This document shows positions 13,567 through 48,650 of a stretch of 64,000 nucleotides of DNA, one piece after another. Source of the DNA: Trypanosoma brucei (lineage: Eukaryota); assembly GCA_000002445.1 (NCBI GenBank), contig CM000208.1:2880001-2944000 (forward strand), written 5' to 3'. The first letter of the stretch is position 1. The number at the start of each line of letters is the position of its first letter. The position numbers and the translations under genes are program-made. A model generated the notes under the pieces. The model did not search any database and was not told the origin of the DNA. It saw nothing but the letters and a program-made list of their open reading frames with translations.

Positions 13567-13917
13567 TAAAAAAAATTTACCCATGTTCTGCCGGGTAAAT
13601 GTCGCTATCCTTCGTTTAGTTGGCACTCTGTATGTTTTGTGGGGGTAGCCGCGTGTAGTTTTATTTGTTTTATTTTCTCGCGTATATGGCTTACTGGTAC
13701 GTTTCATGTTTTTCGTTTTTTTGCATTGGTGTCGTCCAGTACTTAATTCATCATATTCATCTTATATTTTTCCTCGTTATTGTTCCTGAGGGTATTTTGC
13801 GGAGGAAAAGGGAAGGAAGCTACCTGTTACATACCCGTTTATTTTGCTTGGTTGCTTCTTTGATTTCCGTAACGTAAACTCCAATACTGTTGTTGTGAAG
13901 GTCCGTGCAGCGGAGTC

Positions 13918-15192: not shown

Positions 15193-17301
15193 ATGGGAAG
15201 AAATAAGTCCCATGCGCCGTACCTTGGGGTATTAGAAGATGGCCTCAACACATTACAGCGCATACAACAGTGGGGAGCTGCCGCAGAGCTGTTATACACC
15301 CCGAACAGCCTTGTGAGCAGCCCACAGAGCTCGAACGAACCGCACGCATTAACTGTGGCCCGTCAAATCGCTACCATCATGGCGCGACTGAATGAATTGT
15401 GTAGACGTGAAGCAGAGGTGCTCCTAACGCCCCGATTGGCTCTTCTAGAACTGGCGGACGTTATCCGTCACGGTCTTGTCTCCTTTCACCAAGAGGGTTT
15501 TAATGGCCAATTAGGCAATGCCGAGGTGCTGGCCAAGTACGTCGCCCATCGTACAGCTCCGCAGTGTGGCGTAATAGAAGGGTTACATGTTATCACATGG
15601 GTGAGCGTGAAACTACGCATAGAGTTGTTTATTGAGCAACTACGCAAACGGGTTGATGGGGAACTTGCAGCAGCGGAGGGTGGGGGCAGCCGCACTGAGC
15701 AGCAACTGTCTGCATTGCGCACCACACAGCTGCTGTTCAATGACTTTGAATCACTTTACGACAATCTCCTTGTTACTTTTCCGTGCGTTCAGTATGCGGA
15801 CACAATCCCTGAGGTGGGTGCGCAGCTGATGCCAATCCTCTTGAAACAATACTATCAAATTGCAGAGTGGGTGGAGCTGGTAGAGTCCAACAACGCGCTC
15901 CCTCCCTTAACCGAGACGAGAGTGCAGTCCGTTGACGCGGAATCTTCATCCTTCGTGGTACGCCGTCAAAACCCAGAGGCACCTTTGGGTCTCGTCTTCA
16001 ATGAATGTGGCCGCATAGTTGAAATAGATCCTTCCGTCCGCAGTGCATCGGCATCTGGGGAAGAGCTGCATCGGCTCCTGCGGTGCAGCGAAAAGGGGGC
16101 AGTGGTAGTCGCAGTCAATGGAAAACCAATACCGCGCTCCCCACCGAGCAAACCATCAAAGGTGCTGGAAATGGTTCACGATGCCGTGAAGAAGAACAAG
16201 CGGGTTGTCGTGAAAGTGGCCAAGGAGCTATTTAAACAACCAAAAGTTCATCAGTTAGCGTTTATAATGCCAAACCAGGGAGGTGAAGGCTCTTCCGGCC
16301 AGCGCGCCACACTAGTGCTTCACCGTAGTGACCGGCTCACTCCTTGGGGTTGCCAATTTGATCAAGACTTAATTATAAACAAGATCCCCAGGCGGGAATT
16401 ATCCGAGGATGCTAAGAATTTCTTCACAGAGTACAGTGACCGAGTGAGCATCACGGCTGTGAACGGTGTTGAAGTGACGACGGTGGCTCAGGCGCAAGCG
16501 CTTTGCTCTGACACAGAGACTGCGGTATTAAGCCTTGTGGTCGTTACACCTGCAATGGCCCAGCAGCGAAAGAACCGCACCACGAGACAGGACACGTCGG
16601 TAACCTTGACCCCACAACAGATTGAACAGCTTCAAGAGACGCCGCTAGTTCCTGAACAGAAAACTCTACCTCCTCTGAATCAAGCCCCGGCGGAATTGTT
16701 GGAAAGCGACAGTGTCGTTGATGGCAATCTCGATGCAGCTCTGCTCTCAACCTCTATGGAAGACACCGGTGAGGTGGAGGATGTAACCCATGAACCCCAT
16801 TCACAGGTGGAGGAAGTGGACATGAACACGTATCAGCGCGTGGCAATTGATGTACACCACGGGGAAGATTTGGAACAGGAAGAGCGGCAGAAACAACAGC
16901 ACCTGGAGAGTGAAAGGCATCTCGAACCATCAGGCTTAGAAGGGTCAACGGATGCAGATGCTCCAGGTCCACTCGTTTTTCCCAACGATGTTGCCATCGA
17001 TCTGCTTACTCCGTCAGAGATGGTAATCCGGCGGCCATCCACAGAAGATAGATGGGGTCTCGTGCTTAACAAAATTGGAACAAGCTCAGGGGATGCACTG
17101 CGTGTCTTACAGCTTCCGGAGCTCCCGCCAAAGGGCGACACTAGGCGAAAGCATCCGTTTTACAAGACGTTCAAAAATCCATCCGTACCGACGGAGTGGC
17201 GCATCGAGAGCGTCAACAACACGCCAGTTTCAAAGGCAGCAGACATACTTGAAATAATGCGAAAATCTCTCAAGCTGAGTATTAAGTTTTTCAAGCTTTG
17301 A
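15193..17301 (+). CDS. Hypothetical protein with three PDZ-like domains and an acidic linker.
   Basis: Three segments show PDZ-like Gly-Leu-Gly/WG openings and beta-rich cores: PLGLVFNECGRIVEI..AVVVAVNGKPI, TPWGCQFDQDLIINKI..VSITAVNGVEV and DRWGLVLNKIGTSSGDALRVLQLP. An E/D-rich region lies at about 16700-16960. Confidence 0.55.
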   Translation: MGRNKSHAPYLGVLEDGLNTLQRIQQWGAAAELLYTPNSLVSSPQSSNEPHALTVARQIATIMARLNELCRREAEVLLTPRLALLELADVIRHGLVSFHQEGFNGQLGNAEVLAKYVAHRTAPQCGVIEGLHVITWVSVKLRIELFIEQLRKRVDGELAAAEGGGSRTEQQLSALRTTQLLFNDFESLYDNLLVTFPCVQYADTIPEVGAQLMPILLKQYYQIAEWVELVESNNALPPLTETRVQSVDAESSSFVVRRQNPEAPLGLVFNECGRIVEIDPSVRSASASGEELHRLLRCSEKGAVVVAVNGKPIPRSPPSKPSKVLEMVHDAVKKNKRVVVKVAKELFKQPKVHQLAFIMPNQGGEGSSGQRATLVLHRSDRLTPWGCQFDQDLIINKIPRRELSEDAKNFFTEYSDRVSITAVNGVEVTTVAQAQALCSDTETAVLSLVVVTPAMAQQRKNRTTRQDTSVTLTPQQIEQLQETPLVPEQKTLPPLNQAPAELLESDSVVDGNLDAALLSTSMEDTGEVEDVTHEPHSQVEEVDMNTYQRVAIDVHHGEDLEQEERQKQQHLESERHLEPSGLEGSTDADAPGPLVFPNDVAIDLLTPSEMVIRRPSTEDRWGLVLNKIGTSSGDALRVLQLPELPPKGDTRRKHPFYKTFKNPSVPTEWRIESVNNTPVSKAADILEIMRKSLKLSIKFFKL

Positions 17302-17961
17302 TAGACATGGGTATGAAGGGCAGGTTATGCACTTGCAAGGATTTCCCATATTTCCTTCCCCTCCTCCCGTCTTCTCATTTTTTTTTTGTTGAGACAGAAG
17401 ACGGGTTCGCACACCAGCGCGTATAAGAGTACCATCGTATGTATGCATCTACACACATGGCACTACATATCCTCACGAACATGCGTATACCTGCGTGTGG
17501 ATTTGTGCCTGTAGGGAGACATCATTTAGAGTGTAGTGGGAAATACCCAGATATCCCAATAGATGTAAATGGGGGAGGGGGGTGAAGGTGGTACCTTGGC
17601 CCAAATGAAGGGGTCACGCGCACTTTGCGAAGTACAACAGCAGGACTCGGGTTTATTTTTTCCGTGCTTAATCTCTCTCCAATTAGAATACGTATAGAAG
17701 TGCGCATACCAGCCTGTTTTAAGGCTTGGGCACGCCACAAGAGTGCTTGTATACCTATATCATTTTACGTCCCACTCTCCATATTTTTTTTAACTGATGC
17801 CATGTACTCATTTCAGTGTACTGATTCCACCCGCGCCGCTATGGGCCTGATTCGAATGGCTCACCTTGTTGATTGTTTTTTTTTTGTATGCAACTTCCTA
17901 GAGCACTTTAATCTATCGCTTGTTCAAAAGGGTAGTAAAATATTTTCGTATTGCGGCTTAG

Positions 17962-31124: not shown

Positions 31125-31342
31125 AGCGCAGTCCCTTGGAGCTGAAGCACGGCGTTTGCAAAAACGTTTGTCGGCATATTTTGTGCAGTTTGGTAAAAAG
31201 GCGTGAGTGAAAGAGGAAACCAATTGCTCAGTTCATCCTTCTCTGTTAATCCGTGAAAAGCGCAGCCTTTCTTTTAGGAAGTAGAGGGGATTCACCGCAC
31301 AACGGAGCGGGAGGCAAAGTGCAAGCGCACTTGTTGAGGAAA

Positions 31343-32149
31343 ATGAGGCGAGTGGTAGTGGATTTGAGGCCGAAGGAGTGTTACGACGAGGGTCACTTGG
31401 AAGGGGCGTTCAGCTTCCCGTGGGAGGATATACAGAACGAGTCTTGTGGGCTACCACCGCGTGAAACTTTGCTCACCGCCATCGTAGACGAGCGAATAGA
31501 CCAAGGAAGTGTTACGGCATACCTTTCCCGCCTTCAGTACGCGGCGTTGGAGGTAAGGATGTTGGGACAGCACGAAGAGATGGTTCGCCGGCCACCGGAA
31601 GGTTTTTGTTGGGTTCCAAACCCTTTTCTCGTGAGCGTGTTGCGGTTTGTGGAAGAGTCGAGTAGCGGTATCTCGTTTGCACTTGACATTGGCTCCGGCA
31701 GCGGAAGGGATATGGTCTTCCTGGCCTCCCGTGGGTGGCATGTTGTTGGAATCGAGAACCGGAGGCGGCTTATTTGGCAAGGGGAGACGCTTGCCCGCAA
31801 ACACGACGTCTCGGGGCGGGTGGCCTATTTGCACAGTGACATCAAGGAGGCTTACCCAGTAAGAAGTGGGTCGGTGGACCTGGTGCATGTCTGCCGCTTC
31901 TTGCACAGGCCGTCCCTCAGCCGCTTGCTTGAACTTCCACGCCGCGGCGGCCATCTCGTGTACAGTCACTTCCTTGAGGGCTGCCAACACACCAAAGTCG
32001 GCCACCCTTCGTCACCCGCTGGTTTCTGGAGAAGGGGCGAACTGCGATCACTGCTGGAGGATGCCGGTTACGACGTGATCCATGAGGAGGAAACGACGCT
32101 TCCAGACACGAGGCCATTTTTGCACATTCTTGCCAGGCGGGCAGTCTGA
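31343..32149 (+). CDS. Rhodanese-like domain fused to a TehB-like SAM-dependent methyltransferase. It is the last gene of the + strand transcription unit. The ORF-track start at 31253 is GTG; the first ATG after the polyY/AG at 31266-31279 is at 31343.
   Basis: VVDLRPKECYDEGHLEGAFSFPWEDI is a rhodanese motif. FALDIGSGSGRDMVFLASRGWHVVGIE is SAM methyltransferase motif I, TehB-like. The upstream sequence cctttcttttag gives the splice signal. Confidence 0.65.
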   Translation: MRRVVVDLRPKECYDEGHLEGAFSFPWEDIQNESCGLPPRETLLTAIVDERIDQGSVTAYLSRLQYAALEVRMLGQHEEMVRRPPEGFCWVPNPFLVSVLRFVEESSSGISFALDIGSGSGRDMVFLASRGWHVVGIENRRRLIWQGETLARKHDVSGRVAYLHSDIKEAYPVRSGSVDLVHVCRFLHRPSLSRLLELPRRGGHLVYSHFLEGCQHTKVGHPSSPAGFWRRGELRSLLEDAGYDVIHEEETTLPDTRPFLHILARRAV

Positions 32150-33573
32150 TGACGGACACGTAAAAGCCACAACGCCCCCAGCGATCTTAAAGTTTGGAAT
32201 GTGGTCCGAGCAACGCCCACGAGCGTAGGGCCGAACCATCCATCAGTGATGGGAGGGCGCTTGTGGTCCAGGAAGCGCAATAAGCACCGACGATGTGAGG
32301 GACGGTACCCACTCTGTCACTCGTATGCTTGTGCCTACTCGGGCGTTGATTCCGTTTGCTTTTTTCTAACATTTGCGCCCGTTAAAGGCAAAGTAGTGAA
32401 GTAATCTCCCCTTCCAAAGAAAGAAAAAAAAAAGGAAAACCACAAATCCCTTTGGGTGGAAGGTGTGGCCGGTTCAACCACTTCATTCCGCTATGCTGCC
32501 TTGAAGTCTCCGCGGAAGCGGAGGCTACTTGTTCGCGCCTTTCTGTGGCGAAAATGAAAATTACTAAACCTCAAGTTTGGCGTCCCCACCACTCAAGCCA
32601 TGCCTTGTTTCCTCTCTGTCGTCCGCAGCCGTTTCATGGAGCTCCGCCAGGAGGAGCCAAGCTCGCAACAACGCAGCAATTTTGTGCCTAAGAGTCCCAA
32701 TCCATCCGCATTAATGCCGCTCCCGGGCGCCGGCATCCAGCCCATTTGCCCCCAGCTCCCAAATGCTAACCATGCGGAAACGGAGAGAAGCGCGATTCAA
32801 GCTGGCAGGCATGCATTTTTCGCTACCAAATTCAGCAGCCGGCCCCATACCGCGGTGACGGCCAGGATGAGTGAAGGTAAGTCAGCCACCCTTGGCTACA
32901 CTTTTTTGCTTCTCTGGGCTCTCTTAAGCCCTCACCTACTAATCCCACCCCCCAAAAAACAACAGTGCACCTGTCCAACCGGACCCGCCCAGTGACCCCT
33001 GCCTTCTACAAGTACGGTTATACAAGATTTGAAAAAAGGAAGTGAAGAGGGATATCGCTCCACAGGCATGTACGGTGCCGCCAACGCGGATGCGGGAAAG
33101 CCAGCAATGAAAAGGGAAGAGGGTTGGATCCCATCCGTTTAACGAGGTTCTGCAGTTCGTGCTCCTACCTTATCGGTAATTGGACATTTGTCCTTTCTTT
33201 CCTTTTAGGGGATGCTTGAGGGGGGGAAGGTCCACCAGCGGTATCGCTAAGGGCGGGTGGCGCGTGTCAACACGCTCAGGGGGTTTAGACTGCGACGACA
33301 AGGTGCCGACAACCGGCGGTTCTGTGTCATGGCTCGCTTCCCCAACTTCGTTCCCGTTTGCATCCGTAGCGGTAAACAAAAATACAACCGGAGGCAAACC
33401 GTGCGGCAACCGGTGAAGCGGGGATAGGATGCTGCTTGCTTTTTGCACTGCTCCACGACTTTCCGTCAATCCAGTCCAGTCGATTACATGTTGCTTCACA
33501 AAAACCCACGGCTAGTTCGTGCGAAAACGGCATCGAAACTACAGAACAGTCGCGACGTCCTTCCTCAGCTGAC
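32150..33573. other. Convergent strand-switch region where + strand and - strand polycistronic units meet. It is a presumptive RNA Pol II termination zone with no credible ORF.
   Basis: All genes left of 32149 are on + and all genes right of 33574 are on -. Only short overlapping ORFs with no coding signal lie between them. Confidence 0.65.
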
Positions 33574-34689
33574 TCACCGCTTGCCGCATGTTGCGTATAA
33601 CCGTCCTCTACGAACCTTGAAGCGCGAAGGTCTGTACTGCTTTTTCTCACCGAAGTACTCACGCAACTGCGCATACTCCTCCTCCTTAACATTGTGAATC
33701 ATCAATGAACTGTGACTAAGAGGCCCCACCCAACCCTTTCCGTGAAGGTTATGAAAACGGCACATTGGCTCGCCGACGAACAAGGGCTGGTAACCCATTT
33801 CGTAGAGTACACGCCCCATAAGTAAGTCTTCGTGTTGCATGTACAGGGAGGTAAATTCATCCTCCCGCTCTTTGCTGTACGGCACGTCGACAAGTTTCTT
33901 TAGGGGTTCGTATGTCAGGAATTGTTCTATCACCTCTCTCGAAGCGGTGTAAAGACCCCCAGTTGCGAACAACAAAGGCATGAAGCGTGCGTTAACAATG
34001 TTCCCCCAATATAAACGGCGACGTGGTAGAGCACGAAGGTCAGCAAGGTACTGCGGGGTGTGCACAAACATGTCGTCATCCGACTTGGCAACATAATTAA
34101 CATTAGGGAGGAGCCGCAGCATCAGACTAAACCACTTGTACATTTTACGACTCATACCGATCTCAGCATCGGGGCCCCAGTACCTGCCGTCCTGTCCAAT
34201 TACCTTGTTCGTACTTACACGGCCCTCCTTGATTGGGAGAGCGATGATATCTTGCCAACGCAACCCCTCCTCCACTAACTGGGGCGAATGCGTGTAGTTA
34301 TGATCTGGATGGCGCGCGAGAACAAAGGTAACGAGCAAATCTCCAGTAAAGTTATTACTCCTCCTCGCGACGCCTTGGTATTGCCAGCAGGTCAAACGCT
34401 GAAGATGGCGCCTGCGTCGTCTCACGGCATTATCGGGCGACAATACACCGAGCATGACGAGGAAATTTCGTTCCCTCCACGCACGCACAACATCCGGGGG
34501 CACGTACTGCAGAGACTCCCGATCCTTTTCGGTATAGTCGAACTCCGGGAGTGGCGGGGGGGCCGAGAAGCTCGCTTGGGAGGCCTCCCGTACAATACGT
34601 TTGCTCCTCGTTGAAAAAATCAATAGGATTGCCACGAAAGTAAGGCAGACGAGGATCAGTCCCCTCCTACTCAAAATTTGTCCAACCAT
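33574..34689 (-). CDS. Type II membrane UDP-Gal/UDP-GlcNAc-dependent glycosyltransferase (GT31, beta-1,3-glycosyltransferase-like). It is the last gene of the - strand transcription unit.
   Basis: There is an N-terminal signal anchor (LILVCLTFVAILLIF), a galactosyltransferase-family core, and the DxD motif in YVAKSDDDMFV. Architecture is like the multigene GT family of African trypanosomes. Confidence 0.8.
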   Translation of the reverse strand: MVGQILSRRGLILVCLTFVAILLIFSTRSKRIVREASQASFSAPPPLPEFDYTEKDRESLQYVPPDVVRAWRERNFLVMLGVLSPDNAVRRRRRHLQRLTCWQYQGVARRSNNFTGDLLVTFVLARHPDHNYTHSPQLVEEGLRWQDIIALPIKEGRVSTNKVIGQDGRYWGPDAEIGMSRKMYKWFSLMLRLLPNVNYVAKSDDDMFVHTPQYLADLRALPRRRLYWGNIVNARFMPLLFATGGLYTASREVIEQFLTYEPLKKLVDVPYSKEREDEFTSLYMQHEDLLMGRVLYEMGYQPLFVGEPMCRFHNLHGKGWVGPLSHSSLMIHNVKEEEYAQLREYFGEKKQYRPSRFKVRRGRLYATCGKR

Positions 34690-35595: not shown

Positions 35596-35997
35596 CTAGT
35601 ACCCCGGCGGACGAGGGAGGTTCTGCACGCCTCTCACGACAGCACCTGCGCCATCTATGGGGGTGATGCCCCATAGCCTGTAGCGCAGGTAGCAAAAGGC
35701 AAAGTAAAGCAGAATCATAATTGGGCCCAAGACTGAGATGTTTGCCACCGTCAGCAATTTCTTAATTTTGAACTTTTGGTCCACGGGCACTTTCTCAAGT
35801 TTATCTTCGAAAACGGACAGCTCCTCCTTGCGCTGTTTCCATCGGCGGTAGGACCAGCGATTGATAGGGTGGCTATCCTTACTTACCTCCCAATAGCCGC
35901 GCTCGCGTAGTGTATCTTTCTTCAATGTTTTGTTGAATGCGTAAAGGCGCTCGGCGTTAATTCTTCCCATTGCGCCTTTGCGCACAAAGTTAGCCAT
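35596..35997 (-). CDS. Small hypothetical protein of 133 aa with one C-terminal transmembrane helix.
   Basis: It has an ATG start preceded on the coding strand by a polyY tract (ctgtccttctcctttccctctttcattctc) and AG sites. The N-terminus is basic and a hydrophobic helix VLGPIMILLYFAFCYL is present. It sits in a 1.5 kb gap otherwise free of genes. Confidence 0.4.
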   Translation of the reverse strand: MANFVRKGAMGRINAERLYAFNKTLKKDTLRERGYWEVSKDSHPINRWSYRRWKQRKEELSVFEDKLEKVPVDQKFKIKKLLTVANISVLGPIMILLYFAFCYLRYRLWGITPIDGAGAVVRGVQNLPRPPGY

Positions 35998-36204
35998 CGG
36001 TGACGATGTCCGCTACTATTTCTTCCTACTGCACGGCGGTCTCCACAGAACACCGAGAATGAAAGAGGGAAAGGAGAAGGACAGTCTCTCACACTCTCTG
36101 TGAAGTGAAAGTGACACACTCCCCGCTCAATTTTTTCTTTAACCATGCCACCAACCCAGCCCCGAACTAAAAAAACAAACAAACGTTACCCAAAGGCCGA
36201 CTAT

Positions 36205-36268: not shown

Positions 36269-39037
36269 TCATTTCATGTTTTGTCGATGGGCCTTGCTCT
36301 TTAAGTGCTGTTCCCACACGCGCACTGCAACGTTTCGGCGGCAAACCCTACACATGACCTTTCCCGCCTTACGAGGGTTGGTAACTTCGTCCCTCGACAC
36401 GTGCCGTGGGGGCACACGATCCTTTCTTAAGTTCCGCGGGTCTTCCATACGTTCATGCTTCAAGGGATAACCAGGAAAGTGAGTGTCTAGATACTCCTGG
36501 AAGTTGTTCTTCTGACGGTCCTCGTAGAGCGCTTTAAAGCGATCATACGAGTCTGTGATGAAGGTAGCTTCCCCTGGGAGAATCTTTCCATCCTTGTCAC
36601 GTCCTTTCTTCCATTTGAGCCCGAAAGGTTTGCAGAGCCTGTCGAGCTGCTTCTGCTTGGCGGGGTCTAGTCGCAGTTTGGTGCATGCATCGCACTGGTT
36701 AACGTGCATCAGCACACCGCAGAGCCTCTCGAACGGGGTCGCATCCAGCCCAATGTAGCCGCCCTTGTGCACGTCGAGTGGAGGCACACTTCCATGGGCC
36801 TCCAGATACTCGCGAAGAGTATTCAAACACTCCTCCCACGGGTATGGACCGTGGAGTCCGTAAGTCCGCCACAGAGGGAGTGATTCCAGGTCGCGTATTT
36901 GGTGCATCCTCAAACAGGAGGGTTCTTTGTCCAAGTACTGACGGTATCCCTTTCGGCAGTAACGGTAAAAGAGAGCCATTGAAACCGATTTCTTTCCAAT
37001 AACCCAAGCATCGTTTGTTTTGGGATATCTATTGCACTCTAGCACAATGCGTTTCATTTCGTTGAAGGCATTCTTCCACGGAAGTCGCGTCGCGCGGTGC
37101 AATCGATCCGTGTTCTGGCTTGAGTAGCGCACCCCACGCCTGATGGCGGGAAGAACGAACCTTCGTAGCCGTTCAGATGACAGCTTGAGGGACCTCACAC
37201 CCACGACATCAACGTCGTAGGACACTTTATGAGGGTCAATCAAATACTCAAACAGCAGCGGATCTTCGTCCATCAAAGCATCTGTAAAGGGGACAAGCGT
37301 GGAAAACTTCTCCAGATTGACGGGGTGATCTTCCGGCAGCCTCTTGTTGATGGTGGCGGGAAGGAACACGTAGGAAATGGGCTTGTTTTCCATTTTATTG
37401 AGCGGTCGGCATATACTCTGAACAATGTCACGGGAGCTGTAGCGCGGGGCGGCAAAAAATACGGCGTTGAGGTCGGGAATCTCCACCCCTTCCTGGAGTA
37501 AACGAACGTTTAGCAATAGGCAACGTCTGGATGCTGAAAAATCTCTCAAAACACTAGCAACGGCGGCGCTCCCCATCCGAGAATGGGCGAGCAACACATC
37601 GAAGGGCGTTATATCATCAGGGAGGGGATGCTTCAGATCCGCCGCAAGCTTTGTCGCGTGCTCAATGCACCTACAGTAGACGATCATCTTGTCCACGGTA
37701 TTCATAGCTTCATAAAAGTATGGATTCATGTCATCCATGCTCTCGCCCAATACAATTCGCACCGCAAAAGGGTTCACGTAACCAGCGTCGATGCCCTCCC
37801 GCAAATAGTACCGATACGCTATGTCACCAAACAGATACGTGTTGTCCATTTTTAGTGGCGTATCGTATGCTGGTGTTGCAGTGAGGAATAATCTCCGTCC
37901 GCAGCGAGGTTGGAGGAGGACGTTATTGAAATTAGTGGGTAAGTCACTCCCACAAACGCGGTGACATTCATCAAATACGGTGAGTGCAAAATTTGGCATT
38001 TTTGAGATTATGTGCGAAGACTGATATGTGCTAATAACAATCAAATGTGAGGCACATGAGCTGATGGTGCTCCTAATCAATTCAGCGTCAGTCGTCATGT
38101 TACGAACACAGCCGTCCCCCATGAATATGCTTCCGCTGTCTGACCCTATAAGAAGAAATGGAACATCCTTCAAACCATAGCTATAAAGCTTCCGAGCTGT
38201 CTGCCGCAAAAGCGCAAGGCCTGGAACCAGGTAAAGAATGATGGAATTTGGTTTCATCTCCAAGTGCCGACGAATGAGATCATATGCCACTGGGGTCTTC
38301 CCGCAACGGCACGCCATTTGACAAATTGTGGCGCCACAACTATCGAGCTGCTCAAGGCAACGAGCTACAGCATCCTTTTGATACGGACGAAGCGCCGCCA
38401 AACTAAACGTCTCTTCTCCCAACGCATCCACAACCTCAAAATCACAGCCAATTTCATAGTCTTCCCCGTCTCCTGTCTCAACACTGTTGAAAATATCATC
38501 GTCAGTCGGTGCATCACATGGAGAATTGAGAGAAACCATGGACTCACGAAGCTTTTCCAGTGATCCCATGTACTTTTCCAGGGTGTGCAATTTCGGAGCC
38601 TCCGCCTCACGCCGGGAGTTTTTCTCAGTCGAGATCCGTCCACTGCTCGCATAGTCGGGTGGTAAGCTGTTCTTTTCAATATAAACGGGTGCCATGTTCA
38701 CCAGTGCGTTTAAGTTGAGCGTGCTACAAACACGTCGGGCACCCTCGGTAACATCTTGCGCATCGCCTTTTATAAGCTCTCGCTGTGGGACGCGCCTTTC
38801 TTTGAACAGAAACAGCACAGCTTGTTCAAGGAGGAACGCCTCTTTCATGCTTTCACAACGGAAAACAGCGTAGTACGACCATTCGGGTGTGAAGCACGTT
38901 GTGAACGAAGCCATTTCTAGGCGGCGGGTAAAGTCCGCTGTGCACCCAACCTTCACGTAGCCGGAGCCCGTCAACCATGGGTGGACGGCAACGTAAAAGC
39001 CAAGGCCACACCTAACGAGCACGGTCAGGCGGACCAT
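36269..39037 (-). CDS. Fusion protein of an N-terminal T5orf172 (GIY-YIG-like, MUG113) domain, an SF2 DExH helicase core, and a C-terminal U1/matrin-type C2H2 zinc finger.
   Basis: The N-terminus GLGFYVAVHPWLTGSGYVKVGCTADFTRRLEMAS ... YYAVFRCESMKEAFLLEQAVLFLFKERR fits the T5orf172 pattern. Helicase motifs present are LRPYQKDAV (Q/Ia-like), ACRCGKTPV (Walker A), TVFDECHRV (DExH), LFLTATP (motif III) and QSICRPLNK (motif VI-like). The C-terminus CRVCRRNVAVRVWEQHLKSKAH is a dsRNA-binding-type zinc finger. Confidence 0.7.
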   Translation of the reverse strand: MVRLTVLVRCGLGFYVAVHPWLTGSGYVKVGCTADFTRRLEMASFTTCFTPEWSYYAVFRCESMKEAFLLEQAVLFLFKERRVPQRELIKGDAQDVTEGARRVCSTLNLNALVNMAPVYIEKNSLPPDYASSGRISTEKNSRREAEAPKLHTLEKYMGSLEKLRESMVSLNSPCDAPTDDDIFNSVETGDGEDYEIGCDFEVVDALGEETFSLAALRPYQKDAVARCLEQLDSCGATICQMACRCGKTPVAYDLIRRHLEMKPNSIILYLVPGLALLRQTARKLYSYGLKDVPFLLIGSDSGSIFMGDGCVRNMTTDAELIRSTISSCASHLIVISTYQSSHIISKMPNFALTVFDECHRVCGSDLPTNFNNVLLQPRCGRRLFLTATPAYDTPLKMDNTYLFGDIAYRYYLREGIDAGYVNPFAVRIVLGESMDDMNPYFYEAMNTVDKMIVYCRCIEHATKLAADLKHPLPDDITPFDVLLAHSRMGSAAVASVLRDFSASRRCLLLNVRLLQEGVEIPDLNAVFFAAPRYSSRDIVQSICRPLNKMENKPISYVFLPATINKRLPEDHPVNLEKFSTLVPFTDALMDEDPLLFEYLIDPHKVSYDVDVVGVRSLKLSSERLRRFVLPAIRRGVRYSSQNTDRLHRATRLPWKNAFNEMKRIVLECNRYPKTNDAWVIGKKSVSMALFYRYCRKGYRQYLDKEPSCLRMHQIRDLESLPLWRTYGLHGPYPWEECLNTLREYLEAHGSVPPLDVHKGGYIGLDATPFERLCGVLMHVNQCDACTKLRLDPAKQKQLDRLCKPFGLKWKKGRDKDGKILPGEATFITDSYDRFKALYEDRQKNNFQEYLDTHFPGYPLKHERMEDPRNLRKDRVPPRHVSRDEVTNPRKAGKVMCRVCRRNVAVRVWEQHLKSKAHRQNMK

Positions 39038-47334: not shown

Positions 47335-47847
47335 TCAAATGTTGTTGGTATCGGAAAGCATTTGCAGCGCTTGCTTCACGTTAGCTTCCGTCAATCCAGT
47401 TGTCGCATTCGTGACGATGGCGTGCCGCGCGAAGAAGTTGCGATCAGGGGCGCTGAGTGGTAAGTTAATATCGTCCAGAGCAACGAAGTTGACAATATTG
47501 TACTTTCTTTTGTTAGAATCAATCCACGACAGTATTTCCACAGACCTTGGTTTATCCGGAAGCGTCGGGGTGCAGTCGATGAAAACTGGCATGCCAAACT
47601 GGGTGAGCTGACGGGCCACTTCTTTCCGCCCAAAATCTGTTGTGCGCCACGAGCTGCTCAACACAATTTGCGCTCCCGACCCGTTTATTATATCAGCGAG
47701 GAACTTCATCTGCCTTGGGGCAAACAGCGGCCCCCCAAAGGGTGACACAACGCCATCACAGTCAAGGAACACAATTTTAAGGGGTGCGTTGTTGAAGGGC
47801 ACAGCGTTTGTGGCCGTGTTTCCGGATTTTGCTTTTGTTGCTTTCAT
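47335..47847 (-). CDS. Small HAD-superfamily hydrolase (phosphatase-like). The ORF-track start at 48093 is TTG and runs through a polyY tract; the first ATG is at 47847.
   Basis: KIVFLDCDGVVSPF is HAD motif I (DxDG), IVLSSSWR is motif II (S/T), and the late acidic motif is ALDDINL. Confidence 0.55.
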   Translation of the reverse strand: MKATKAKSGNTATNAVPFNNAPLKIVFLDCDGVVSPFGGPLFAPRQMKFLADIINGSGAQIVLSSSWRTTDFGRKEVARQLTQFGMPVFIDCTPTLPDKPRSVEILSWIDSNKRKYNIVNFVALDDINLPLSAPDRNFFARHAIVTNATTGLTEANVKQALQMLSDTNNI

Positions 47848-48650
47848 GTCGCGGTTTACACTATTTAAAAAAAAATAATAAATAATAAATAAATGACAGA
47901 AGCGCTGGAGAAGATCAAACCAACGGAGATGTGTGAAGGAGGAAGGCGGAAGGTGTTCCTGGAAAATAATATGGGTGCTAGGAAGGTAAATAACTAAACG
48001 GAAGCAAACACACGAGTAGAAACTACACGAGAGGTTGCTGCGTATGTATATCCCTTTACTTCTGGCGGTCCCTTTTAATGGGAATATCACCAAAGCGGGA
48101 TTTCAACAAAGTGAAAAAAATTAAGGAGGGCAAAAAAAAAAGTTAAAGGTTAAAATAATGGTGACAGAACGGAAAAGGGGTTTAAACGCTAAGAATTGTG
48201 CTATCCTGTTTGCCCTTGTCAGGAAGCAGTCATGTTCTACCTTTCGTGCGCTCCGTTCTCGTTGAACAGTTTCACATATTAAAAAAAAAGTAAAACCAGA
48301 AGCAGAATTTTGAATATAAAAAAACTGATGAAAAGGTACATGGGTGTGTTAGTTTAGGTATATATAAAAGCTTGGGTGGGAGCAGGCGCATCGATGGATG
48401 CAACTGCCTCCCTGTAACAGTGTTACTACGTTAAAATTCCAGTAGGATGCCCCAAAATTCGATGACTGCGGCACTAGGATGGGGTTGAACGTAAAAGTGT
48501 GACTAAGCGATCTGCTACTCAACCGCAGCGACCCGTCCCCCAAACGCCGTAGGCACTCTCGCTCGTTTTACCGTAACCACCGGGTAGCTTTTACCCCAGT
48601 AATGTTTTTCCTTCGCCATTACCCCCTTTATTTAATGCGAATCCACCCTT

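What the first reader, a model, noticed from the sequence alone, without database searches (positions are those of the whole stretch)
32150..33573. Convergent strand-switch region between two polycistronic units
Gene orientation flips from all + to all - across a gene-free gap of about 1.4 kb. In trypanosomatids such convergent regions are Pol II termination zones marked by base J and the histone variants H3.V/H4.V. In RNAi-competent species they are also hotspots of siRNA production, and they often host Pol III genes. I scanned both strands for tRNA T-arm and D-arm consensus and C/D-box pairs and found nothing convincing, so this region may be a pure termination zone. It is the natural place to look for unannotated ncRNA, which a by-eye scan cannot exclude.
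Basis: partly seen in the sequence, partly recalled or inferred. Interest (0 to 1): 0.5.

Follow-up and report, generated by a model that had tools for sequence, protein, structure and literature searches.

The report
Known trypanosome convergent transcription stop
This is an already-mapped spot on Trypanosoma brucei chromosome 10 where two head-on gene arrays end; it hides no RNA gene, and published knockout data show that base J and histone H3.V stop transcription here, so it is an ordinary example of a known feature.

Summary
Sixteen ORFs of at least 200 aa lie on + up to 32149 and fourteen on − from 33574, and cumulative GC skew peaks at the junction. The window is T. brucei brucei TREU927 chromosome 10. 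The flanks are Tb927.10.12270 (methyltransferase, +) and TbGT8/Tb927.10.12290 (−).

The gap is not strictly gene-free in the reference annotation, which places a 131-aa "T. brucei-specific" ORF at 32600-32995. That ORF has an in-frame stop in T. b. gambiense, near-neutral substitutions, no homologue among 1.84 billion proteins and no transcript-assembly members, so it is probably not a real gene.

RNA-seq contigs show that at least 474 of the 1424 bp are 3'UTRs of the flanking mRNAs. ARAGORN, Rfam (both thresholds), a B-box scan, a folding z-score scan and cross-species comparison find no ncRNA.

Published data cover this junction. H3.V and base J lie within 10 kb. Removing both raises Tb927.10.12270 and 12280 mRNA 2.4-5-fold and TbGT8 antisense RNA 5-fold, with sense RNA unchanged. 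It most likely corresponds to siRNA locus CTU42.

The parts
31343..32149 (+). Last conserved gene of the + strand polycistronic unit: Tb927.10.12270, a rhodanese/methyltransferase-domain protein (268 aa)
   Evidence: Pfam Methyltransf_25/11/31. Exact match to EAN78604/XP_823432 of TREU927. Named Tb927.10.12270 in PMC5853035. Orthologues in T. congolense, T. vivax, T. cruzi, T. theileri and others. pN/pS 0.23-0.31.
32150..32328 (+). Minimum 3'UTR of the Tb927.10.12270 mRNA
   Evidence: RNA-seq contig L004 (Logan ERR7929162) aligns to 31253..32328 at 98.2% identity. The runs are RNA-seq because sister contigs carry the spliced-leader 3' end.
32350..32387 (+). Polypyrimidine tract (32350-32367, TTCCGTTTGCTTTTTTCT) followed by the first AG (32386-32387). 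Candidate terminal trans-splicing/polyadenylation signal of the + unit.
   Evidence: Read directly from the sequence. It lies 22 nt downstream of the end of mRNA contig L004. Its function is inferred from the known coupling of polyadenylation to downstream trans-splicing (stated in PMC3332058).
32600..32995 (+). Annotated 131-aa ORF Tb10.389.1460 / Tb927.10.12280, 'T. brucei spp.-specific protein'. Probably not a real protein-coding gene but the terminal by-product transcript of the + unit.
   Evidence: Annotated in TREU927, T. equiperdum and T. b. gambiense, where it is 93 aa. In-frame stop at codon 31 in gambiense. Of 11 substitutions, 8 are non-synonymous or nonsense; pN/pS 0.4-0.7. Substitution density 2.8%, against 2.9% in the adjacent non-coding DNA. 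No Pfam hit. No real homologue among 1.84 billion representatives. No Logan transcript member in its cluster, unlike all neighbours. Low RPKM of 2.1.
32329..33278 (.). Interior of the gap not covered by the flanking mRNA contigs (950 bp). The zone where the two units meet.
   Evidence: Limits set by L004 and L005. No tRNA. No Rfam hit with E below 3. Folding z-scores are the same as in other intergenic DNA. No repeats. No similarity to the T. vivax, T. cruzi or T. theileri loci.
32996..33573 (.). The cSSR as delimited in the literature (from the stop of Tb927.10.12280 to the stop of TbGT8), 578 bp
   Evidence: Schulz 2016 S6 Table gives 397 bp from the start of Tb927.10.12280 to the nearest cSSR, and the ORF is 396 bp long. 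Ouna 2012 places Tb927.10.12270 '1 kb' from the convergent stop area.
33215..33230 (-). Polypyrimidine tract on the − strand (33230-33218, CCTTCCCCCCCTC) followed by AG (33216-33215). Candidate terminal processing signal of the − unit.
   Evidence: It lies 49 nt downstream of the aligned end of TbGT8 mRNA contig L005. Its function is inferred.
33279..33573 (-). Minimum 3'UTR of the TbGT8 mRNA
   Evidence: RNA-seq contigs L005 (34700..33279, 99.6%) and L006 (34710..33401).
33574..34689 (-). Last gene of the − strand polycistronic unit: TbGT8 (Tb927.10.12290), a UDP-GlcNAc:betaGal beta1-3 GlcNAc-transferase (371 aa)
   Evidence: Exact match to EAN78606. The published cloning primers match the window at both ends of the CDS (compared). 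pN/pS 0.07. Sense log2 RPKM about 7.0, antisense −3.36 in wild type.

Best explanation
The interval is the convergent strand-switch region of T. brucei brucei TREU927 chromosome 10 between Tb927.10.12270/12280 (+) and TbGT8/Tb927.10.12290 (−), probably at about 2.98 Mb. RNA polymerase II transcribing each polycistronic unit runs past its last gene. It must do so because each last mRNA needs a downstream polypyrimidine/AG signal for 3'-end formation. The candidates are 32350-32387 on + and 33230-33215 on −. Polymerase is then stopped by chromatin carrying histone H3.V and base J.

The DNA between the two coding sequences is therefore two 3'UTRs (at least 179 and 295 nt), two terminal processing signals, and a few hundred bp of unconstrained sequence. 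That unconstrained sequence happens to contain a 131-codon ORF annotated as a species-specific gene. The residual transcription that overlaps from both sides is the likely source of DCL2-dependent siRNAs. There is no Pol III gene or other structured RNA gene here.

Shown: the gene layout, the UTR minima, the absence of known or structured RNAs, the lack of constraint, and (from published tables) the dependence of termination on J and H3.V at this junction. Inferred: the roles of the two polypyrimidine tracts, the identity with CTU42, and the exact points where polymerase stops.
For: - Layout and skew.
- Source identification by exact protein matches and by the TbGT8 primers.
- mRNA contigs carrying the spliced leader, which define UTR minima.
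- No tRNA, with a positive control tRNA-Arg found in T. theileri.
- No Rfam family at gathering threshold or at E up to 10 beyond noise.
- B-box-like matches below chance, 21 against 29 expected.
- Folding z-scores in the gap equal to other intergenic DNA (mean −0.07 against −0.04, p = 0.67). The best hairpin is not significant (z = −1.83).
- Substitution density in the gap (0.9-2.9%) is comparable with synonymous divergence of the flanking genes (pS 0.016-0.039).
- Reynolds 2016 S4 Table: both + strand terminal genes are within 10 kb of H3.V and of base J. RPKM 11.1 to 30.5 (2.75-fold) and 2.15 to 5.21 (2.4-fold) in H3.V KO + DMOG.
- Schulz 2016: Tb927.10.12280 sense 0.236 to 1.17 (adjusted p 0.027), 397 bp from the cSSR. 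TbGT8 antisense log2 RPKM −3.36, −1.64, −2.78, −1.01 (WT, J, H3.V, both), with sense constant at about 7.0.
- Ouna 2012 treats it as a convergent transcription stop area.
- Tschudi 2012: siRNAs at all surveyed convergent units. CTU42 has 1825 top and 1800 bottom reads and falls to 0.65% of wild type in dcl2-/-.
- Coordinates are compatible through T. b. gambiense chr10. Reynolds S2 lists chr10:2,980,784-2,987,816.
Against: - The H3.V and J calls in the published table have only 10-kb resolution and come from strain Lister 427, not TREU927.
- The assignment to CTU42 / chr10:2.98 Mb rests on gene-ID scaling and on gambiense coordinates, not on an exact TREU927 coordinate. The index had no record for TREU927.
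- At that small-RNA region the increase in the H3.V KO was not significant (5 to 12.7 RPM, p = 0.42/0.35).
- Contig ends give only minimum UTR lengths. No poly(A) tail or spliced-leader junction was seen for the two flanking mRNAs themselves.
- The 14-fold CTR9-RNAi increase of Tb927.10.12270 could not be confirmed by RT-PCR in the original paper.
Confidence: 0.9

Rival explanations
1. The gap contains a genuine, T. brucei-specific protein-coding gene (Tb927.10.12280, 131 aa). The + unit then ends at 32995 and the true non-coding junction is only 578 bp.
For: - The ORF is annotated in three genomes.
- It is preceded by a polypyrimidine tract and AG at a suitable distance.
- Poly(A)+ reads are recorded for it: RPKM 2.15 and 0.236.
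- It is intact in TREU927 and T. equiperdum.
Against: - In-frame stop at codon 31 in T. b. gambiense, so only a 93-aa remnant is annotated there.
- Of 11 substitutions, 8 are non-synonymous or nonsense. pN/pS is 0.4-0.7, against 0.07 and 0.23-0.31 for the neighbours.
- Substitution density equals that of the flanking non-coding DNA.
- No Pfam domain.
- No homologue among 1.84 billion representatives other than a spurious repeat hit.
- It is absent from the T. vivax, T. cruzi and T. theileri loci.
- It is the only annotated gene in the neighbourhood with no RNA-seq-assembly member in its cluster.
- Expression is 5- to 60-fold below the neighbours.
Confidence: 0.08
2. The region hides an unannotated non-coding RNA gene (tRNA-like, snRNA, snoRNA or another structured RNA), as many strand-switch regions do.
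For: - In T. theileri a tRNA-Arg(ACG) lies about 400 bp downstream of the orthologous methyltransferase gene, so this position can host a Pol III gene.
- One window (32500-32599, +) reached z = −3.0 in the coarse scan.
Against: - ARAGORN finds nothing in the whole 64-kb window, nor in the T. b. gambiense and T. equiperdum copies.
- Rfam finds nothing at gathering threshold and only E of 3 or higher to irrelevant bacterial, archaeal and animal families in the gap.
- B-box-like matches are below chance.
- The z-score distribution is identical to control intergenic DNA.
- The best hairpin drops to z = −1.83 with 200 shuffles.
- No sequence is conserved with other trypanosome species, and within-species divergence is at neutral levels.
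Confidence: 0.03
3. Besides termination, the junction serves another chromosomal function such as a replication origin (ORC1/CDC6 site). This is not exclusive of the main explanation.
For: From my own knowledge, not tested here: in T. brucei, ORC1/CDC6 binding sites and mapped origins lie at boundaries of transcription units. The GC-skew extremum at the junction is what either transcription-coupled or replication-coupled asymmetry would give.
Against: - No sequence feature distinguishes the gap from other intergenic DNA.
- There is no repeat array or AT-rich block of centromeric type.
- Only a minority of unit boundaries are active origins (own knowledge).
- The skew pattern is fully explained by coding-strand bias.
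Confidence: 0.1
4. The strand switch is an artefact of mis-assembly or of mis-oriented gene calls.
For: One related assembly (T. equiperdum OVI) does have a scaffolding artefact inside the gap: an N-run with duplicated flanks at the position equivalent to 32424.
Against: - Three independent assemblies share the same order and orientation.
- T. vivax also switches strand directly after the methyltransferase orthologue.
- RNA-seq contigs run across each CDS into the gap in the expected orientation.
- A spliced-leader junction at 36041 (−) confirms the direction of the − unit.
Confidence: 0.01

Closest known systems
T. brucei convergent strand-switch regions / Pol II transcription termination sites marked by H3.V, H4.V and base J (Reynolds 2016, PMC4721609; Schulz 2016, PMC4721952)
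   Same: Two polycistronic units converge. H3.V and base J are recorded within 10 kb. Terminal genes and antisense RNA rise when both marks are removed. The site is treated as a cSSR in those genome-wide analyses.
   Different: Nothing essential; this is one of the catalogued sites. Locally, the gap is short and consists mostly of UTR, and the reference annotation places a doubtful ORF in it.
siRNA-producing convergent transcription units of T. brucei (Tschudi 2012, PMC3447711): CTU42
   Same: Balanced top- and bottom-strand small RNAs that depend on DCL2, produced at all convergent units surveyed. CTU42 (chr10:2,977,900-2,992,300) fits the expected position.
   Different: Identity with CTU42 is inferred, not proven. 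The siRNA window (7.0-14.4 kb) is 5-10 times wider than the 1.4-kb gap, so siRNAs must also come from the flanking genes.
J/H3.V-dependent premature termination within polycistronic units that attenuates the last genes (Reynolds 2014, PMC4150806; Reynolds 2016, PMC4721609)
   Same: Tb927.10.12270 and 12280, the last two annotated + strand genes, are weakly expressed (4.1 rpkm against a median of 30.6; 11.1 and 2.1 RPKM). They rise 2.4-2.75-fold on loss of J and H3.V.
   Different: The effect is modest and needs loss of both marks (1.1-fold and 0.6-fold in the H3.V KO alone, 1.6-fold with DMOG alone). The position of the internal stop relative to the genes is not known from the tables.
Strand-switch regions that carry Pol III genes (tRNA, snRNA, 5S), e.g. 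the T. theileri orthologous position
   Same: It is a boundary of a polycistronic unit immediately downstream of the same methyltransferase gene. T. theileri has tRNA-Arg(ACG) there.
   Different: No tRNA or other Rfam RNA is present in the T. brucei gap or anywhere in the 64-kb window, and there is no relic of the T. theileri tRNA.
Leishmania convergent strand-switch regions (base J-dependent termination)
   Same: The same architecture and the same DNA modification at the ends of polycistronic units (introductions of PMC4721609 and PMC4721952).
   Different: In L. major, loss of J alone gives read-through. In T. brucei, J and H3.V act together, and overlapping transcripts feed an RNAi pathway.

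Membership tests
Trypanosomatid convergent strand-switch region (Pol II termination site) | Two long same-strand gene arrays converge tail to tail | tested here: met
   16 + ORFs followed by 14 − ORFs of at least 200 aa. GC-skew maximum at the junction. Orientation confirmed by mRNA contigs and a spliced-leader junction.
Trypanosomatid convergent strand-switch region (Pol II termination site) | Enrichment of histone variant H3.V | tested here: met
   By literature look-up, not computed here. Reynolds 2016 S4 Table scores Tb427.10.12270 and Tb427.10.12280 'Yes' for H3.V within 10 kb. The resolution is 10 kb and the strain is Lister 427.
Trypanosomatid convergent strand-switch region (Pol II termination site) | Presence of base J | tested here: met
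   By literature look-up. The same table scores 'Yes' for base J within 10 kb.
Trypanosomatid convergent strand-switch region (Pol II termination site) | Loss of the marks causes read-through or antisense transcription into the opposing unit | tested here: met
   By literature look-up. TbGT8 antisense log2 RPKM goes from −3.36 (WT) to −1.01 (J and H3.V double mutant), about 5-fold, with sense unchanged at 7.0. Tb927.10.12280 sense is 5-fold up.
Trypanosomatid convergent strand-switch region (Pol II termination site) | Enrichment of H4.V | not tested
   No dataset or table reachable here gives H4.V at this locus.
siRNA-producing convergent transcription unit (T. brucei) | DCL2-dependent 21-27-nt RNAs from both strands mapping to the junction | tested here: inconclusive
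   All surveyed units give such RNAs. CTU42 (1825 top and 1800 bottom reads; 0.65% of wild type in dcl2-/-) and Reynolds' region chr10:2,980,784-2,987,816 fit by position. The exact TREU927 coordinate of the window could not be obtained.
Strand-switch region hosting Pol III genes | A tRNA, snRNA, 5S or 7SL gene within the region | tested here: not met
   ARAGORN finds 0 genes in the window, with a positive control in T. theileri. Rfam finds 0 at gathering threshold and only E of 3 or higher noise in 31800-33900. B-box-like matches are below chance.
Protein-coding gene (annotated Tb927.10.12280) | Reading frame kept open in close relatives | tested here: not met
   In-frame stop at codon 31 in T. 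b. gambiense DAL972. Only 93 aa are annotated there.
Protein-coding gene (annotated Tb927.10.12280) | Purifying selection on the protein (pN/pS well below 1 and below the neighbouring non-coding rate) | tested here: inconclusive
   pN/pS is 0.4-0.7 from only 11 substitutions, against 0.07 (TbGT8) and 0.23-0.31 (methyltransferase). Substitution density is 2.78% against 2.89% in the adjacent non-coding DNA. The counts are too small for a formal test.
Protein-coding gene (annotated Tb927.10.12280) | Homologues or domains outside the species | tested here: not met
   No Pfam hit. phmmer against 1.84 billion representatives finds only the ORF itself and a spurious repeat match. No tblastx signal in the T. 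vivax, T. cruzi or T. theileri loci.
Trypanosome centromere | Large AT-rich tandem repeat array at a strand-switch region | tested here: not met
   No tandem or dispersed repeats of note in or near the gap. GC is 0.52-0.55 there.

The most novel reading that the evidence does not exclude
The roughly 950-bp interior (32329-33278), including the Tb927.10.12280 ORF, could give rise to a T. brucei-specific functional transcript. This would be a lineage-specific long non-coding RNA or a micro-protein whose level is set by J/H3.V-dependent termination. The junction would then act as a small epigenetically gated gene rather than a passive stop. The evidence does not exclude this: poly(A)+ reads exist at low level and rise 2.4-5-fold when the marks are removed.
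Probability: 0.05. Interest if true: 0.35.

Novelty: already known. Interest (0 to 1): 0.1.

Why it matters
It matters little as a discovery. This junction is already included in published genome-wide maps of T. brucei termination sites, and its behaviour in J and H3.V mutants is tabulated.

The follow-up has three practical results:
1. The by-eye suspicion of a hidden ncRNA can be put aside.
2. The reference gene Tb927.10.12280 inside the gap is probably a spurious or at best dispensable ORF. It is better read as the terminal by-product transcript that a polycistronic unit needs in order to polyadenylate its last real mRNA.
3. A third or more of such a 'gap' is simply 3'UTR, and the overlap/siRNA zone extends well beyond it. 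CDS-to-CDS gaps are therefore a poor proxy for the termination zone.

Tried and rejected
- Species misread at first. I took the organism to be an unsequenced relative of T. congolense, because the 90%-identity cluster representatives were unnamed Logan sequences and the best named hits were 50-70% identical. I then took it to be T. equiperdum. Exact look-up showed T. b. brucei TREU927 chr10.
- Apparent 211-bp insertion in the T. equiperdum gap. It is an N-run with duplicated flanks, a scaffolding artefact.
- Rfam E-value hits in the gap (eL15 leader, BM-sr0117, Ms_AS-1, mir-204, NPPA-AS1). All have E of 3 or higher, score far below gathering and come from irrelevant taxa, so I rejected them.
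- Hairpin at 32500-32599 (+). It scored z = −3.0 with 40 shuffles but −1.83 with 200.
- tRNA T-arm-like GGTTCAACCAC at 32471. It is one of 21 one-mismatch B-box matches, against 29 expected.
- Relic of a neighbouring gene or of the T. theileri tRNA in the gap. blastn and tblastx found none.
- P0191 hit to the gap ORF. It is a 14/45-residue match inflated by five tandem copies.
- Exact TREU927 coordinates. The gene-position index had no record.
- The held supplements of the PJW/PP1 complex paper (PMC7055916) contain none of these gene IDs.
- The start of L004 at 31253 is not preceded by AG, so it is not a splice-acceptor site.
- The first folding scan timed out.
Full report
**1. Observation**

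Every ORF of at least 200 aa from the start of the window to 32149 is on the + strand (16 ORFs). Every one from 33574 to the end is on the − strand (14 ORFs). Cumulative GC skew climbs steadily to about 32 kb and then declines. The finding's coordinates are exactly the stop-to-stop interval between the two flanking coding sequences.

The interval is 1424 bp. The 28 same-strand spacers of the window have a median of 471 bp and a maximum of 1656 bp, and two of them are as long or longer. The switch is therefore real and precisely placed. The gap is long but not exceptional.

**2. Where the window comes from**

My first two guesses were wrong. The best named relatives of the flanking proteins were only 50-70% identical, because the 90% cluster representatives are unnamed Logan sequences. 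A 100% match of the M20 peptidase then pointed to T. equiperdum OVI.

An exact-sequence look-up settled it. The methyltransferase, the small gap ORF, the glycosyltransferase, the 133-aa protein, the helicase and gamma-glutamylcysteine synthetase are each identical to T. brucei brucei TREU927 chromosome 10 proteins EAN78604-08 and EAN78614. Several of them differ from the T. equiperdum and T. b. gambiense versions.

The + flank is Tb927.10.12270 (PMC5853035). The − flank is TbGT8, Tb927.10.12290, and the published cloning primers match the window at both ends of the CDS (compared).

**3. Is the gap gene-free?**

Not according to the reference annotation. The ORF at 32600-32995 (+) is Tb10.389.1460, 'T. 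brucei spp.-specific protein'. It is called in TREU927, in T. equiperdum (131 aa) and in T. b. gambiense (93 aa). Reynolds' and Schulz's tables call it Tb427/Tb927.10.12280.

I aligned the whole interval from the three subspecies and found the following.
- The gambiense copy carries an in-frame stop at codon 31.
- Of 11 substitutions in the ORF, 3 are synonymous and 8 are non-synonymous or nonsense. pN/pS is 0.4-0.7, against 0.07 for TbGT8 and 0.23-0.31 for the methyltransferase.
- Substitution density in the ORF (2.78%) equals that of the non-coding DNA to its left (2.89%).
- It has no Pfam domain.
- phmmer against 1.84 billion representative proteins returns only the ORF itself and a spurious match to a tandem-repeat protein.
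- Nothing similar exists at the T. vivax, T. cruzi or T. theileri loci.
- Its cluster is the only one in the neighbourhood without any RNA-seq-assembly member.

I conclude, with about 90% confidence, that it is not a functional protein-coding gene.

**4. What the gap is made of**

The Logan contigs that brought in near-identical proteins come from runs ERR7929156-64. One of them (L010) begins with ...TCTGTACTATATTG. This is the 3' end of the trypanosome spliced leader; I know that sequence from memory, not from a tool. Another (L015) has ACTATATTG joined at window 36041 on the − strand. The runs are therefore RNA-seq assemblies of a T. brucei strain 0.4-1.8% divergent from TREU927.

- Contig L004 covers 31253-32328, that is, the methyltransferase mRNA plus 179 nt of 3'UTR.
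- Contigs L005 and L006 cover 34700-33279 and 34710-33401, that is, the TbGT8 mRNA plus up to 295 nt of 3'UTR.

At least 474 of the 1424 bp are therefore UTR, and at most 950 bp (32329-33278) are unaccounted for.

A polypyrimidine tract (32350-32367) and the first AG (32386-7) lie 22 nt beyond the end of L004 on the + strand. A polypyrimidine tract on the − strand (33230-33218) with its AG (33216-5) lies 49 nt beyond the aligned end of L005. Polyadenylation in trypanosomes is coupled to trans-splicing of the downstream RNA (stated in PMC3332058, and PMC4162612). The last real gene of each unit therefore needs such a downstream signal. I infer that these tracts serve that purpose, and that the low-level 'Tb927.10.12280 mRNA' is the by-product. 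This step is inference. No spliced-leader or poly(A) junction was seen for these two mRNAs.

**5. Search for hidden RNA genes**

- ARAGORN finds no tRNA or tmRNA in the 64-kb window, nor in the gambiense and T. equiperdum copies. It does find tRNA-Arg(ACG) in the T. theileri locus, which serves as a positive control.
- Rfam 15 gives nothing at gathering threshold over the whole window. Over 31800-33900 it gives only five matches with E between 3 and 6.8, to bacterial, archaeal and animal families and far below their thresholds.
- Pol III B-box-like sequences with one mismatch occur 21 times in the window, against 29 expected.
- A sliding 100-nt folding scan on both strands gives a mean z of −0.07 in the gap (106 windows) against −0.04 in the other intergenic regions (498 windows), Mann-Whitney p = 0.67. 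The lowest gap window, 32500-32599 (+) at z = −3.0, falls to z = −1.83 with 200 shuffles.
- There are no noteworthy direct, inverted or tandem repeats.
- Nothing in the gap aligns with the orthologous regions of T. vivax, T. cruzi or T. theileri at the DNA or translated level.
- Divergence among T. brucei subspecies in the gap (0.9-2.9%) is of the order of synonymous divergence in the flanking genes (pS 0.016-0.039).

I find no support for an ncRNA gene.

**6. Published functional data for this very junction**

- Ouna et al. [quoted passage not shown] It is weakly expressed (4.1 rpkm against a median of 30.6) and 14-fold up after CTR9 RNAi, although this was not confirmed by RT-PCR.
- Reynolds et al. 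2016 (S4 Table) place Tb427.10.12270 and Tb427.10.12280 in the same unit (no. 49). Both are within 10 kb of H3.V and of base J. RPKM in WT, DMOG, H3.V KO and H3.V KO+DMOG is 11.08, 17.30, 12.12 and 30.49 for 12270, and 2.15, 3.46, 1.30 and 5.21 for 12280. That is 2.75-fold and 2.4-fold up when both marks are lost.
- Schulz et al. 2016 list Tb927.10.12280 (sense) as rising from 0.236 to 1.17 in the J/H3.V double mutant (adjusted p 0.027). Its start is 397 bp from the nearest cSSR, so their cSSR begins at the ORF's stop.
- Schulz's S2 Data give TbGT8 antisense log2 RPKM of −3.36 (WT), −1.64 (J-null), −2.78 (H3.V-null) and −1.01 (both), with sense constant at 7.0-7.15.

In wild type, + strand poly(A)+ RNA over TbGT8 is thus about 1300-fold below the sense RNA. 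It rises about 5-fold without the marks. This is the behaviour expected of a J/H3.V-dependent terminator between the units.

The de-repression of the two last + strand genes also suggests that some polymerases already stop upstream of them. This is the 'termination before the end of the unit' described by Reynolds and colleagues.

**7. siRNAs**

Tschudi et al. 2012 detected DCL2-dependent small RNAs at all 49 convergent units they surveyed. Two of their chr10 entries are candidates for this junction: CTU42 (2,977,900-2,992,300) and CTU43 (3,163,700-3,186,300).

The locus sits at 2,868,254-2,880,655 on the 3,899,268-bp chr10 of T. b. gambiense. TREU927 chr10 is 4,054,025 bp, about 155 kb longer. 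The locus should therefore lie between 2.87 and 3.03 Mb. That fits CTU42 and excludes CTU43, provided the chromosomes are collinear. Scaling by gene ID against CTU38 and CTU41 agrees.

CTU42 gave 1825 top-strand and 1800 bottom-strand reads, the 13th highest normalised count in the table. It fell to 0.65% of wild type in dcl2-/-. Reynolds' S2 Table has a nested region, chr10:2,980,784-2,987,816, with 5 RPM in WT and 12.7 RPM in the H3.V KO (not significant).

If the assignment is right, the dual-strand zone is 7-14 kb wide. That is far wider than the 1.4-kb gap and must include the terminal genes on both sides. The assignment remains an inference because no exact TREU927 coordinate could be retrieved.

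**8. Comparative context**

In T. vivax the order of the 791-aa gene, the M20 peptidase and the methyltransferase is conserved. The strand also switches right after the methyltransferase, with a gap of only about 510 bp. The − strand unit is different there (ATG3-like, RESC9, TPR, kinase), and TbGT8 and the helicase are absent from that contig.

In T. cruzi and T. theileri the genes after the methyltransferase are on the same strand. T. theileri has a tRNA-Arg there. So the position downstream of this gene is a recurrent boundary and synteny breakpoint, but its content is lineage-specific.

**9. Verdict**

The finding is a correct identification of an ordinary convergent strand-switch region that is already catalogued in T. 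brucei. Its interpretation as a base J/H3.V-marked Pol II termination zone without Pol III genes is supported by data for this exact locus.

Three refinements apply:
- The doubtful annotated ORF lies in the gap.
- The gap is made largely of UTR and processing signals.
- The zone of overlap extends beyond the gap.

Novelty: already known. Interest: low.

Noticed in passing
L002 11152-11225 (− strand), T. theileri NBCO01000035.1: A tRNA-Arg(ACG) gene lies about 400 bp downstream of the orthologue of Tb927.10.12270. The equivalent position in T. brucei, T. vivax and T. cruzi has no tRNA. The site downstream of this gene seems to be a recurrent unit boundary with lineage-specific content.
   Followed up: partly
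window 36269-39037 (−): A 922-aa protein combining an N-terminal T5orf172 (GIY-YIG-like) domain with a ResIII/DEAD helicase core. It is Tb927.10.12310, named 'Probable helicase A859L' by UniProt, which is a virus-like name. This is an unusual, possibly horizontally acquired architecture sitting two genes from the junction.
   Followed up: no
window 31343-34689 compared with L011 and L012: Divergence among TREU927, T. equiperdum OVI and T. b. gambiense is 3-6 times higher to the left of about 33000 (methyltransferase 2.0%, left gap 2.9%, ORF 2.8%) than to the right (right gap 0.87%, TbGT8 0.45%). The level of diversity changes across the junction.
   Followed up: no
L007 about 13600-13830 / L011, equivalent to window 32424: The T. 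equiperdum OVI contig CZPT02000209.1 has a 217-column apparent insertion consisting of a run of 10 N flanked by duplicated sequence. It is a scaffolding artefact that inflates the gap to 1635 bp in that assembly.
   Followed up: yes
window 17340-17480 (−), just downstream of the ORF 15193-17301 (+): This was the most stable intergenic fold in the window: −46.6 kcal/mol, z = −4.49, and 0 of 200 shuffles fold as well. It has two long hairpins, one of them around an A10 loop. No Rfam match. It could be a 3'UTR structural element or simply an inverted repeat.
   Followed up: partly
L003 6454-6962 and flanks (T. vivax NLFJ01000509.1): On this T. vivax contig the methyltransferase is followed, after a 510-bp convergent gap, by ATG3-like, RESC9, TPR and kinase genes, with no TbGT8 or helicase orthologue. 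[quoted passage not shown] Either the strains or assemblies differ, or the published synteny does not hold for T. vivax.
   Followed up: partly
window 35596-35997 (−), with mRNA from 36041/36043 down to 34954/34794: The 133-aa hypothetical gene between TbGT8 and the helicase is identical in three subspecies. It is recovered as a complete mRNA contig in six RNA-seq runs, with a spliced-leader junction at 36041. Unlike the gap ORF, it looks like a genuinely expressed small gene of unknown function with no Pfam hit.
   Followed up: partly
L005 positions 1423-1454 (beyond window 33279, − strand): The last 32 nt of this TbGT8 mRNA contig do not match the window. The cause could be a strain-specific indel, an alternative haplotype or an assembly chimera. 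It is not a poly(A) tail.
   Followed up: no
window 47335-48093 (−): A 252-aa protein with a HAD_SAK_2 domain ('HAD domain in Swiss Army Knife RNA repair proteins', E = 1.4e-27) lies in the − unit next to gamma-glutamylcysteine synthetase.
   Followed up: no
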